In this document: piece by piece, positions 24,001-27,000 of the stretch
How positions within the stretch are numbered: the stretch's first letter is position 1
Layout: the number at the start of each line of letters is the position of its first letter
From: an uncultured Gemmatimonadales bacterium
Lineage (GTDB): Bacteria > Gemmatimonadota > Gemmatimonadetes > Longimicrobiales > RSA9
Direction of reading: 5' to 3'
NCBI GenBank assembly: GCA_963783305.1
Contig: CAWAMW010000011.1
Coordinates: 1-64,000, forward strand
DNA length: 64,000 nt
Program-made: the position numbers

Positions 24001-27000
24001 CGTTCGGGGGAGGTCGCGTCTCCGGGGAACGTCGCCCCTCCCTCGTTGCCTGCACTACCACGGCGCTTCGTTTCCTGACGGGGTGAGCAGTCCTTCCCCC
24101 CGGCGACCACGCGTCTCGGGTGAGCGCAGGGGCCTGGCCCCGGGATACGGATAGACGGTGCTGTTCGGCTGTCGGACCTCGGCGGGCGGTGTGTCGTACG
24201 AGGCGTGTGGTGTGGTGTGGGGTTGGAGGTGAGGTGGAGCTGGAGGTGGAGTCGGGGCCGGCAGCGACGTCCCCTGTGCTTCCACGCTGCCGATCTCCGT
24301 GAGGGAGGGGTGGTGTTCCCCGGAGGCGCGACCTCCCCCGAACCGCCCGGCAGCCCTGTGCTGCAGGTCCCCCGATCCGCCCGGCCAGCCCGCTATCCCC
24401 GGATCTCTACCCGTGAGGATCGAGCGCCGGAGCGGGAACACCGCCCCGACCGCTCCCGACCGCCCCCCGACCACCCCGAGCGGGCTCCGCGGCGTTGACA
24501 AACACCCGGGTCGCGTCTAGCATCCGGGCGTAATGAGTTCTCGCGGAAGCATTTGCAGGCCGCTTGGCACCGCGAGGTCGTGGCAGGAGGGGACGGACGT
24601 CACGACCGAAACAAAGGGCTAAAGTGCCGGGACACCGACTCGCCCAGCGATCGCCCCGTCACTTCATGGCGGGGCTTTTTTCGTTTGTGCTCAAGCGCCG
24701 GGCTGGGTCTGGCGCCCACCGAAGAGATCGATGCCAAAGCACCTGTTCACGTCGGAGTCCGTCACCGAAGGCCACCCCGACAAGGTGGCCGACCAGATCA
24801 GTGACACGATCCTGGACGCCGTGCTGGAGAAGGACCCGGCGGGTCGAGTCGCCTGCGAGGTCATGGTGACGACGGGGCTGGCCATCGTCGCCGGCGAGAT
24901 CACCACCGCCGAAACACCGGACTACTCGTCGCTGGTCCGGGGCACGCTCCGCTCCATCGGCTACACGGACTCCACCTGGGGGATCGACGGGGACACGTGC
25001 GGCGTCATGGTTTCCGTGGACCGGCAGTCGCCGGACATCAGCCAGGGCGTGGACCCGGGCGGCGCCGGGGACCAGGGGATGATGTTCGGCTACGCGGTGG
25101 ACGAGACGCCCGAGCTCATGCCGGCGCCGATTCAACTCTCGCACAAGCTGACCGCCCGTCTGGCCGAGGCGCGCCGGGATGGCACGCTGCCGTGGCTCCG
25201 GCCCGATGGCAAGGCGCAGGTCACGGTGGAATACGAGGGCGACCGGGCGATCCGGATCGAGACCGTCGTCGTAAGCACCCAGCACGCAGCGGATGTGACT
25301 CTCGACCAGGTCAGGGAGGGCGTCCTGGAGGAGGTCATCGTGCCGTCGCTCCCGGAGGAGCTCTTCGACCGCGACCACTGCATCTTCCACGTGAATCCCA
25401 CCGGCCGATTCGTGGTGGGGGGACCGCATGGCGATGCCGGTCTCACGGGCCGCAAGATCATTGTGGACACTTATGGCGGCGCCGGCCGGCACGGCGGCGG
25501 CGCGTTCAGCGGCAAGGACCCGACAAAGGTCGACCGCTCGGGTGCCTACGCCGCGCGCTGGGCGGCCAAGAACGTGGTCGCCGCTGGCCTCGCACGCCGC
25601 TGCGAGATCCAGCTCGCATACGCCATCGGGGTGCCCGAGCCGGTCTCCATTCACGTGGACACCTTCGGCACCGGCGCCGCCGCCGACCACGAGATCGCGC
25701 GCATCGTCGCCGACACCTTCGATTTCCGACCGCGCGCCATCATCGAGACGCTCGGCCTGGCCCGACCCATCTACCGCCCCACCGCCGCGTACGGCCACTT
25801 CGGCCGGACGCCCACCACGAACGGCAACGGCCTGGCGCTGTTCCCGTGGGAGAAGACGGACCGGGTGGACGCGCTGCGGTCGGCGGCCGGGGCCTCGGCG
25901 AAGGTCGGGACTACGGCGTAGGCGGCGCGAGGGTCGATCCGCCGGGTCGCTGGCGCGACCGGCGGACCCGCTGACGCGGGGGTCGATGGGGACGGCGAGA
26001 GTCGGAGTAGGCAGCGTTCCTCACGGATCCCGCGTACGCAGGCGCCGCCACCTGCGCTGATGGGGCTCACCCGGTTGGGAGATAGATGTCCAGATCGTCG
26101 CGATACCTGCAGGAGCTGGAGCGCCGCGTCCTCGTTTATGATGGCGCCATGGGTACGAGCATCCAGGGCTATGAGCTGACGGCCGACGATTTCGGCGGGG
26201 CTTCGCTCGAGGGGTGCAACGATTACCTGGTGATCACCCGGCCGGACGTGGTGGAGGAGATCCATCGGTCGTTCCTGGAGGTGGGCTGCGACGTGGTGGA
26301 GACCGACACCTTCCGCGCCAACCGGCTGACGCTGAAGGAGTACGGTCTCGCGGACCGGGTGCTGGAGATGAACCGGGCGGCCGCCGGGCTGGCGCGTCGT
26401 GCGGCGGACGCGTTCGCCACGGAGGACCGGCCGCGGTTCGTGGCGGGGAGCATCGGTCCGAGCGGGTTCCTGCCGAGCACGTCGGACCCGTCGCTGGGCG
26501 CCATGACGTACGAGGAGCTGGCGGACGTCTTCGCCGAGCAGGCGCTGGGGCTGGTGGAGGGGGGTGTGGACGTGCTCCTGATCGAGACCAGCCAGGACCT
26601 GCTGGAGGTGAAGGCGCAGGTCACGGGAATCCGGCGGGCGCTCCGCGAGCTCGGTCGCGACGATGTCGCCATCCAGGGGCAGGTCACGCTGGACACCTCC
26701 GGCCGGATGCTGCTGGGCACCGACATCGCCGCCGCGGTCACGGTGCTCGAGGCTCTGCGCGTCGACGTGGTGGGCCTCAACTGCTCCACGGGGCCCGAGC
26801 ACATGCGGGAGCCCGTGCGCTGGATGTGCGAGAACACCCGGCTCCCCATCTCCGTGATCCCGAACGCCGGCATCCCGCACAACGAGGGCGGTGTGGCCGT
26901 GTACCCGCTCTCGCCGGAGAAGCTGGCGGCGGCGCACGAGGAGTTCGTCCGGGAGCTGGGCGTGAGCGTGGTGGGCGGCTGCTGCGGCACGACGCCCGAG

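What a model noticed while it worked through the whole genome (the two positions that open the first line are those of the whole stretch)
24495..24681. Unannotated SAM-II-like (long-loop) riboswitch with terminator platform in the metK leader
Between a sigma-70-like promoter (TTGACA-17-TAGCAT, C11:24495-24523) and metK (g01790, start 24731) lies a structured leader: a 6-8-bp P1 stem enclosing GNAUUUG...GGCCGCUUG, a variable hairpin, an invariant 3' block CAAAGGNCUAAAGUGCCGGG (aptamer 24539-24631), then an intrinsic terminator (24654-24681). The 3' block can pair inside the aptamer or with the 5' arm of the terminator, i.e. a transcriptional OFF switch. It is conserved before metK or metH in family RSA9 and is a divergent relative of the SAM-II 'long loop' aptamer that Rfam's thresholds miss; it is the only SAM-type riboswitch candidate in the genome.
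Evidence so far: rna.tsv lists no SAM riboswitch; cmscan of the leader against 4227 Rfam families: nothing at E<=0.1, 3 chance hits at E<=10. BLASTN of the 221-nt leader: 23 of 40 other RSA9 genomes; 24 sequences align with 40 invariant columns. RNAalifold: 20 pairs, 10 with compensatory double changes; P1 pairs 34/90 GC:18 CG:6, 36/88 CG:22 GC:2, 42/83 GC:14 CG:7; alternative pairing GUGCCGGG/CCCCGCAC with the terminator arm predicted. Of 20 homologous loci scanned at E<=5 one (L067) touches RF01726 SAM-II long loop, 24 bits against gathering 44, full model length. metK follows here and in L065; elsewhere an ORF 71% identical to g01791, the methionine synthase next to metK here. One copy of the motif in thi [...]
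(Added by a program. Inside this text positions count along the whole contig: contig position 1 is position 1 of the stretch shown here. "Call 12" and the like, gene names such as g00115 and contig names such as C1 are that model's own, and its searches are not shown. The text may have been shortened before it was handed on; [...] marks where a part breaks off. The agent that wrote the report below was given it as the finding of a first reader that could run no searches.)

Follow-up and report, generated by a model that had tools for sequence, protein, structure and literature searches.

The report
SAM-II riboswitch variant before metK
The leader of this methionine-cycle operon most likely holds a known kind of S-adenosylmethionine-sensing RNA switch, carrying an extra hairpin that hides it from the standard RNA database, which stops transcription when the cofactor is plentiful.

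Summary
The element is real. It is a SAM-II-class riboswitch of the RF01726 'long loop' lineage, followed by an intrinsic terminator, in front of metK-metH-(Hcy methyltransferase/MTHFR). Every ligand-contacting base of the SAM-V crystal structure has an identical counterpart here. A model built from the leader finds one copy in 68 of 73 family genomes, where RF01726 passes its cut-off in 0 of 73. The orthologous metH leader in a sister family lacks the inserted hairpin (P3), and 9 of 18 such copies pass the RF01726 cut-off; that bridge files it under SAM-II. Pseudoknot pairs covary, and the aptamer's 3' strand and the terminator's 5' arm change together, which supports an antiterminator and hence a kinetic transcriptional OFF switch. 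Binding and switching are untested, and independent changes are few. This scan found the same variant before in other Gemmatimonadota genomes. Side result, not in this window: relatives before metY-like genes add a Cys/Met-codon mini-ORF and a second terminator behind the riboswitch. Verdict: new variant of a known kind; moderate interest.

The parts
24495..24523 (+). sigma-70-type promoter, TTGACA-17-TAGCAT; start site inferred near 24530
   Evidence: 10 of 12 matches. TTGAC lies within 70 nt upstream of P1 in 160 of 187 homologues against 18 of 164 control windows. Start site not measured.
24541..24575 (+). [quoted passage not shown]
   Evidence: Pair probability 0.90-0.97 at all transcript lengths tested; 3 of 6 pairs show double changes in alignment A3.
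24549..24555 (+). third strand GCAUUUG, equal to G5-G11 of the SAM-V crystal (U8, U9, U10 = 24552-54)
   Evidence: Window sequence against the metY SAM-V sequence and contact table (PMC6061858).
24558..24568 (+). 5' strand of pseudoknot P2: P2a GGC 24558-60; U19, U20, G21 equivalents 24564-66; covarying base C24568
24576..24607 (+). inserted variable hairpin P3 (9 bp here); absent in sister-family orthologues; likely reason Rfam misses the element
   Evidence: all 4 tested base pairs show double changes. P1-to-CUAA distance is 9-11 nt in P3-less copies and 21-75 nt in P3 copies.
24613..24631 (+). 3' strand: AAA (A40-42 equivalent), C46-U47-A48-A49-A50 equivalents at 24619-23, P2a GCC 24626-28; switch strand 24622-31
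   Evidence: Mapping on PMC6061858.
24655..24664 (+). antiterminator partner (5' arm and loop of the terminator), pairs with 24622-31
   Evidence: Pair probability 0.70-0.97 for transcripts ending at 24663-24672; linked changes in homologues.
24653..24681 (+). intrinsic terminator, 9-bp stem (-16.2 kcal/mol) and U tract
   Evidence: A strict detector calls a terminator in 169 of 187 homologues against 15 of 187 shuffles.
24731..25921 (+). metK, SAM synthetase; second copy in the genome
   Evidence: an 86% identical copy lies at G000 C7:242024-243184.
26086..29631 (+). metH, B12-dependent methionine synthase; the gene that follows the element in most relatives
30273..32177 (+). bifunctional homocysteine S-methyltransferase/MTHFR; same strand, co-transcription not shown

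Best explanation
A SAM-sensing transcriptional OFF riboswitch of the SAM-II class. Transcription from the promoter at 24495-24523 makes P1 and P3 first. With SAM bound, the 3' strand (24616-28) is held in an H-type pseudoknot with 24558-68, the GCAUUUG strand lies in its major groove, and SAM sits along the triplex. In the SAM-V scheme its adenine pairs with U24620, its sulfonium faces U24553 and U24565, and its amino-acid end contacts A24623. The terminator then folds unopposed and the metK-metH transcript stops near 24681. Without SAM the same 3' strand (24622-31) captures the terminator's 5' arm and loop (24655-64) as they emerge, the terminator cannot nucleate, and polymerase reads on. SHOWN (computed): conservation, covariation, gene context and mutually exclusive helices. 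INFERRED: ligand, triplex geometry (by homology to crystal structures), direction and kinetics of switching.
For: (1) Base-for-base identity with the SAM-V ligand pocket. U8-10, U19-G21 and C46-A49 equivalents are intact in 67 of 67 inspected family hits, and A50 in 66 of 67; the model favours these bases. (2) Bridge to Rfam: 9 of 18 P3-less orthologues pass RF01726, and 17 of these 18 precede metH. (3) Pseudoknot pair C24568:G24616 occurs as U-A 108, C-G 50, A-U 13 and G-C 5 of 188 distinct aptamers. On a metH tree one side changes 12 times, the other 9, and the pair state 12, so all 9 coincide. P2a changes G:C to A:U on both sides in G066 and in 14 of 18 sister-family copies. (4) The G11/U17 equivalents are G/G in 107, A/A in 78 and U/U in 1 of 188. 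This fits the G-G/A-A covariation reported for SAM-II (PMC2258182 passage); the match of positions is my inference. (5) Switch: base U24625 and its partner occur as U-A 75, C-G 53, A-U 31 and U-G 12 of 183; strands pair best with terminators of their own class in 3 of 3 classes. The antiterminator dominates the truncated transcript in 143 of 183 homologues. (6) Downstream genes of 188 copies: metH 88, a PF01053 enzyme (metY-like) 61, Hcy-MT/MTHFR 12, abhydrolase (metX-like) 8, metK 4, amino-acid kinase 4; 11 unassigned.
Against: No binding or expression data. At full length the terminator fold beats the forced antiterminator fold by 5.3 kcal/mol (-59.0 against -53.7), so the ON state needs kinetic control. 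Independent changes are few: the switch base changes 3 times on the metH tree, one of them uncompensated (L114), and 2 times on the metY-like tree; the independent-pairs test for the pseudoknot pair gave p about 0.25. The partner was chosen by a duplex program. An anchor blind to the aptamer base gave 152 of 188 paired, with 15 of the misses due to a register shift. Only 23% of single sequences beat 95% of their own shuffled arms. The window copy has a G.G opposition in P2 (24567 with 24617 or 24618) where most relatives pair, so it may bind less well. The window copy itself scores below any Rfam threshold.
Confidence: 0.88

Rival explanations
1. The aptamer binds SAM but the terminator is largely constitutive, so regulation comes from the promoter or from RNA stability, and the short RNA accumulates as an sRNA.
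For: The terminator is the equilibrium fold at full length. A terminator behind the S. meliloti metA SAM-II aptamer was found for which no antiterminator could be predicted (PMC9373788 passages).
Against: The terminator arm tracks changes in the aptamer's 3' strand. In the sister family all 8 copies with A at the switch base have CACUC in the arm, against 2 of 9 copies with U (read). The antiterminator dominates at the nascent lengths that matter.
Confidence: 0.06
2. A SAM-II-fold aptamer with altered specificity (for example SAH or both SAM and SAH), caused by the changed top of the triplex (C for A18; G or A for U17).
For: Three positions at the top of P2 differ from the SAM-V crystal.
Against: The two uridines that face the sulfonium and set SAM over SAH (PMC6061858) are intact. 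C at the A18 position is common in the published RF01726 source alignment. The terminator logic is OFF before genes that make SAM.
Confidence: 0.04
3. A protein-binding leader or operator with incidental likeness to SAM-II.
For: High sequence conservation next to a promoter could reflect protein recognition.
Against: Base-pair covariation in P1, P2 and P3 (94.1% paired, 0 of 500 shuffles, with the caveat that kinship inflates this). There is also a continuous series to Rfam-passing SAM-II RNAs.
Confidence: 0.02

Closest known systems
SAM-II 'long loop' riboswitch, Rfam RF01726 (Weinberg et al. 2010, PMC2864571)
   Same: Same P1 junction (GGAnnG-AUUUG ... UUG-C-n-A-CC) and the same A-rich linker followed by CUAAA (Rfam consensus). 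The source alignment has members with C at the A18 position and with inserts in the same loop. P3-less orthologues pass the cut-off.
   Different: Here the insert is a fixed, covarying hairpin P3 and there is a G:C-rich 3-bp P2a. The published consensus lines annotate neither these nor a terminator. The family is listed for Bacteroidetes and marine samples, not Gemmatimonadota. The window copy is not detected by the model.
SAM-II riboswitch, Rfam RF00521 SAM_alpha (Corbino et al. 2005, PMC1273637)
   Same: One stem plus pseudoknot, a promoter a few bases before P1, a putative terminator after P2, and methionine/SAM genes (passages). Some P3-less relatives pass this model too (L359 40.3 bits).
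   Different: P3 is absent in SAM-II according to PMC6061858. An antiterminator with linked changes was not seen in the passages read.
SAM-V riboswitch, Rfam RF01826 (structure: Huang and Lilley 2018, PMC6061858, PDB 6FZ0)
   Same: Identical third strand GCAUUUG and ligand pocket, and a P3 hairpin between P1 and the AAA stack.
   Different: SAM-V is translational, with a 2-bp P2a over the Shine-Dalgarno sequence. Here the start codon is about 100 nt downstream behind a terminator, P1 is longer with an A.A-capped junction, and RF01826 gives no hit.

Membership tests
SAM-II class (RF00521/RF01726) | P1 stem closing a loop with the AUUU third strand | tested here: met
   double changes in 3 of 6 pairs.
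SAM-II class (RF00521/RF01726) | H-type pseudoknot P2 with bulged U | tested here: met
   Four Watson-Crick types at 24568:24616; joint changes on the tree; P2a double change. The core UUG/CUAA pairs never vary and say nothing by themselves.
SAM-II class (RF00521/RF01726) | Ligand-contact bases (U8, U9, U20, U47, A48, A50 in SAM-V numbering) | tested here: met
   All present in the window; 66 of 67 family hits keep all of them.
SAM-II class (RF00521/RF01726) | Homopurine G-G/A-A covariation at the top of the triplex | tested here: met
   G/G 107, A/A 78, U/U 1, C/A 2 of 188; few independent events; correspondence to the pair in PMC2258182 inferred.
SAM-II class (RF00521/RF01726) | Position in the leader of methionine/SAM genes | tested here: met
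   177 of 188 copies precede genes of or assigned to this pathway; 11 unassigned.
Rfam model RF01726 / RF00521 (as a score threshold) | Score at or above the gathering cut-off | tested here: not met
   Window copy: no hit; 0 of 73 family genomes over the RF01726 cut-off. P3-less orthologues: 9 of 18 pass. This limits the model, not the biological class.
SAM-II class (RF00521/RF01726) | Binds SAM and rejects SAH | not testable with these tools
   Needs in-line probing or ITC.
SAM-II class (RF00521/RF01726) | SAM-dependent transcription termination | not testable with these tools
   Only predicted.
SAM-V (RF01826) | P3 hairpin between P1 and the A stack | tested here: met
SAM-V (RF01826) | Shine-Dalgarno sequence within a 2-bp P2a; translational control | tested here: not met
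   Start codon at 24731, terminator in between, P2a of 3 G:C pairs. Not filed as SAM-V.

The most novel reading that the evidence does not exclude
The P3-bearing SAM-II variant is a phylum-wide module whose switch can be read from evolution (aptamer strand and terminator change together). In relatives before metY-like genes it is the first half of a two-input gate: a SAM riboswitch with its terminator, then a translated Cys/Met-codon mini-ORF with a second terminator, so the operon is made only when both SAM and charged Cys/Met-tRNA are low. Such a mini-ORF follows 67 of 84 copies not before metH, metK or Hcy-MT/MTHFR, against 4 of 104 of those, and a second terminator follows in 47 of 66, against 4 of 66 shuffles. 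The tandem is not in this window.
Probability: 0.6. Interest if true: 0.6.

Novelty: new variant of a known kind. Interest (0 to 1): 0.38.

Why it matters
It fills an apparent gap: a family with no annotated SAM riboswitch turns out to carry one before its methionine-synthase operon in nearly every genome, missed most likely because of one inserted hairpin. It gives an RNA that joins SAM-II's terminator logic with SAM-V's P3. It also gives a base-level, covariation-backed antiterminator for a class whose gene-control step was described as unstudied as late as 2022 (PMC9373788 passage), so the mechanism can be tested with a few paired substitutions. It does not add a new ligand, fold or principle.

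Tried and rejected
RFAM: the scan of the leader and genome-wide searches with RF01726, RF01826, RF00521, RF00162, RF01725 and RF01057 gave nothing real in G000. TERMINATOR DETECTOR: a lenient version was uninformative (183 of 188 against 84 of 188 shuffles) and was replaced by a stricter one; the duplex table and the count still use the lenient calls. MODEL R2: its P3 brackets were off by two columns, so the phylum tally of 22 of 151 is a lower bound. The corrected R3 raised sister family f3 to 38 of 50, so earlier blanks for f3 were insensitivity. Family f2 stays at 2 of 50, meaning not found in those searched. FIRST FOLDING RUN: the forced antiterminator used partner coordinates off by one; it was redone, and one search's forced energies and single-pair probabilities are discarded. 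FIRST PARSERS: mis-anchored P1 in some rows and were redone. The parser requires the core letters, so their invariance in the 188-sequence set is by construction. 26 of 312 loci did not parse: chance pattern or BLAST hits, non-motif loci, one truncated copy, and 4 loci of 3 real copies that were read by eye. SAM-V membership was rejected on the expression platform. Whether removing P3 from the window copy alone would lift it over the Rfam cut-off remains open; natural P3-less orthologues were used as the test. The look-up of earlier findings by sequence was blank.

Full report
OBSERVATION. The leader is as described. A sigma-70-type promoter (TTGACA-17-TAGCAT, 24495-24523) and an intrinsic terminator (stem 24653-24675, U tract from 24676) are the only calls of their kind in 2 kb. 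Downstream on the same strand lie metK, metH and a bifunctional homocysteine methyltransferase/MTHFR, each over its NCBIfam cut-off. Rfam finds nothing relevant in the leader, and six SAM/SAH models find nothing real in the genome. The leader's folding energy alone is unremarkable (z = -1.1), so the case rests on comparison.

DISTRIBUTION. BLAST matched 29 of 61 related genomes, some by chance. A covariance model from 25 copies (R1) found exactly one copy in 68 of 73 family genomes. The five misses also lack an orthologous metH N-terminus with this query. RF01726 passes its cut-off in 0 of the same 73. R1 found 21 of 151 class genomes. R2, which had a bracket error, found 22 of 151 phylum genomes, one of them with weak hits only. 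The corrected R3 found 49 of 50, 38 of 50 and 2 of 50 genomes in three families of the order. Two pattern scans of all GTDB genomes gave 87 and 89 stretches. Of the first scan's 80 listed loci, 69 held a full match to R1, and their titles name Gemmatimonadota or an unnamed bacterium; the second list likewise. The patterns were derived from these sequences, so they cannot exclude other variants in other phyla.

ANATOMY. I read parts 1-4 of 5 of the SAM-V structure paper and passages of its supplement (PMC6061858). The window maps on it base for base: third strand G5-G11 = 24549-55; U19, U20, G21 = 24564-66; P3 = 24576-24607; A40-42 = 24613-15; C46, U47, A48, A49, A50 = 24619-23. In that structure U47 pairs with the SAM adenine, U9 and U20 face the sulfonium and exclude SAH, and A50 holds the amino-acid end. 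I inspected 67 of the 68 family hits (G085 not fetched). All keep the U8-10, U19-G21 and C46-A49 equivalents, and one (G005) lacks A50. The differences lie at the top of the triplex (C for A18, G for U17) and in a 3-bp G:C P2a (24558-60 with 24626-28).

BRIDGE TO THE KNOWN FAMILY. R1 also retrieved short copies without P3. Four of these scored 38.9-46.3 bits on RF01726 (cut-off 44); the one over the cut-off, L163, comes from an unpublished genome. I therefore fetched 20 of the sister-family hits, none flagged unpublished. Eighteen are P3-less copies of this leader, 17 with metH behind them and one cut by its contig end. All 18 score 35.9-48.8 bits and 9 pass. They share the P1 junction, the core and the CCCCGCAC-type terminator arm with the family copies. 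In the source alignment of RF01726 (PMC2864571, supplementary file 5, parts 37 and 40 of 282) several members already have inserts in the same loop and C at the A18 position, but the consensus lines mark only P1, a short inner stem and a four-base pseudoknot. I did not see the paper's narrative supplement on this motif or parts 38-39 of the alignment, which may bear on what was known of P3 and terminators.

PSEUDOKNOT. From 312 loci a parser gave 188 distinct aptamers (core letters are required by the parser). The pair 24568:24616 occurs as U-A 108, C-G 50, A-U 13 and G-C 5, with the rest unpaired or misread; it uses two registers that differ by one bulged base. On a FastTree of 79 metH fragments the two sides change 12 and 9 times and the pair state 12 times, so each change of the second side falls on a branch where the first changes; the stricter independent-pairs test is not significant (4 pairs, p about 0.25). 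P2a never varies on both sides in alignment A3 but does in G066 and in 14 of 18 sister-family copies. The G11 and U17 equivalents, which share a triple in SAM-V, are G/G in 107, A/A in 78, U/U in 1 and C/A in 2. A homopurine G-G/A-A pair was predicted for SAM-II (PMC2258182 passage). The window copy has a G.G opposition next to the pocket, and C24550/G24567 where most relatives have G/C (161 G/C and 13 C/G of 188); whether these two pair is unexplained.

SWITCH. A strict detector finds a terminator behind 169 of 187 copies, against 15 of 187 shuffles, 8 of 170 coding windows and 5 of 163 upstream windows. In the window the helix 24622-31/24655-64 has pair probability 0.70-0.97 in transcripts ending at 24663-24672 and vanishes once the 3' arm is complete; at full length the terminator fold is 5.3 kcal/mol better (no pseudoknot, no ligand). 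Since the last bases of a nascent RNA are inside polymerase (general knowledge), the shorter lengths are the relevant ones, and the switch would be kinetic. The antiterminator uses the same bases as P2a and the top of P2, so the two are mutually exclusive. Across homologues the switch base and its partner are U-A 75, C-G 53, A-U 31 and U-G 12 of 183, with 12 unpaired or unassigned, and each class pairs best with its own terminators. The limits are real. A duplex program picked the partner; an independent anchor gave 152 of 188. Within the metH tree there are two compensated changes (L116, L155) and one uncompensated (L114); within the metY-like tree there are two, one of them a register shift. 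In the sister family 8 of 8 copies with A have CACUC in the arm against 2 of 9 with U, again among kin.

REGULON. Of 188 copies, 88 precede metH, 12 Hcy-MT/MTHFR and 4 metK (BLAST against the window's proteins). A further 61 precede a PF01053 enzyme, 8 an alpha/beta hydrolase and 4 an amino-acid kinase (representatives scanned; the names metY, metX and aspartokinase are my recall). Ten are too close to a locus end and one is unassigned. This is the gene set expected for feedback by SAM.

COMPARISON AND NOVELTY. SAM-II aptamers with a promoter just before P1 and a terminator after P2 are in the original description (PMC1273637, passages), and terminators are the commonest SAM-II platform (PMC2258182, passages; PMC9373788, passages). 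The element works like SAM-II and belongs to that class by every feature I could test, except the Rfam score. It is not SAM-V, whose translational platform it lacks. I found no paper on it in the held library: 'SAM-II' + 'riboswitch' + 'Gemmatimonadetes' gave 0 papers; 'Gemmatimonad' + 'riboswitch' + 'SAM' gave 12, none on this by title or abstract start (listing only); 'RF01726' gave 2; 'SAM-II' + 'long loop' + 'riboswitch' gave 2. Most subscription papers are not in that library; Gilbert 2008 and Poiata 2009 were not read. Earlier agents of this scan reached the same reading on other Gemmatimonadota DNA; I consulted them after forming mine, and they are not independent support. Verdict: new variant of a known kind.

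SIDE RESULT. Behind the terminator of most metY-like copies lie a Cys/Met-codon mini-ORF and a second terminator. A review of tandem riboswitches has no occurrence of 'leader peptide' or 'attenuat' (PMC9481103, passages and term counts). Cys-codon attenuators are known in Actinobacteria (PMC1262725 and 10.1101/834739, listing only), and the scan has noted Met/Cys attenuators in other phyla (untested here). The arrangement is absent from this window, and a scan of G000 gave two unconvincing candidates.

UNPUBLISHED GENOMES. G020, G021, G024, G038, G085 and G210 contribute rows to alignments A1 and A3, to the models, to the genome tallies and to the 188-sequence counts. L163 and L315 come from them. 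The conclusions do not depend on them, but those rows may not be published without permission.

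Noticed in passing
metY-like group, e.g. L156, L158, L161, L162, L172, L179, L183 (behind the first terminator): A short ORF rich in Cys and Met codons follows the riboswitch terminator in 67 of 84 copies outside the metH/metK/Hcy-MT groups (4 of 104 inside). 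It carries 6.8 Cys+Met per first 25 codons against 2.6 and 0.6 in the other frames, though the ORFs were selected on this trait. Both Cys codons are used about equally, and a second terminator follows in 47 of 66. Candidate tandem riboswitch plus ribosome-mediated attenuator.
   Followed up: partly
L313, L314, L316, L317 (L315 from an unpublished genome); L361, L362: A second, P3-less SAM-II subfamily at other loci of relatives. RF01726 hits of 23-36 bits occur in 20 of 73 family genomes, 5 of them inspected; L361 and L362 pass RF00521. In L313, L314, L316 and L317 a Met/Cys-rich mini-ORF and a second terminator-like hairpin follow; the next genes look like threonine synthase or homoserine dehydrogenase (recalled, not scanned). 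Not found in G000.
   Followed up: partly
window 24731-25921 and G000 C7:242024-243184: Two metK copies, 86% identical. The C7 copy sits about 50 nt behind an upstream ORF with no leader. The metK genes behind the element in three congeners are only 53-56% identical to the window copy, and two other congeners have metH directly behind it. This suggests repeated insertion or replacement of metK between riboswitch and metH (inference).
   Followed up: partly
L159, L160, L165, L189, L194, L195, L234, L239, L247, L264, L266, L271: 12 P3-less copies precede the bifunctional Hcy-MT/MTHFR gene; most of them have a long linker hairpin between aptamer and terminator, and their antiterminator complement is nearly perfect.
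   Followed up: partly
window 16034-21075: A transporter-like ORF (not scanned), cysD and a fused cysNC lie upstream on the same strand, followed by relA/spoT (21497-23851): a sulfur-assimilation cluster next to the methionine operon.
   Followed up: no
window 23860-24470: The spacer between spoT and the promoter holds near-duplicated stretches, visible as repeated peptide text in two spurious ORFs. Similar GC-rich repeat-like DNA lies at 29640-29790 and 33250-33450.
   Followed up: no
window 29806-30276: A 156-aa ORF between metH and Hcy-MT/MTHFR whose sequence recalls four-helix-bundle 'intervening sequence' proteins (recalled, not scanned).
   Followed up: no
L014 (G036): One copy carries an extra hairpin of about 25 nt in the turn between the third strand and P2a, so this turn tolerates insertions too.
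   Followed up: no
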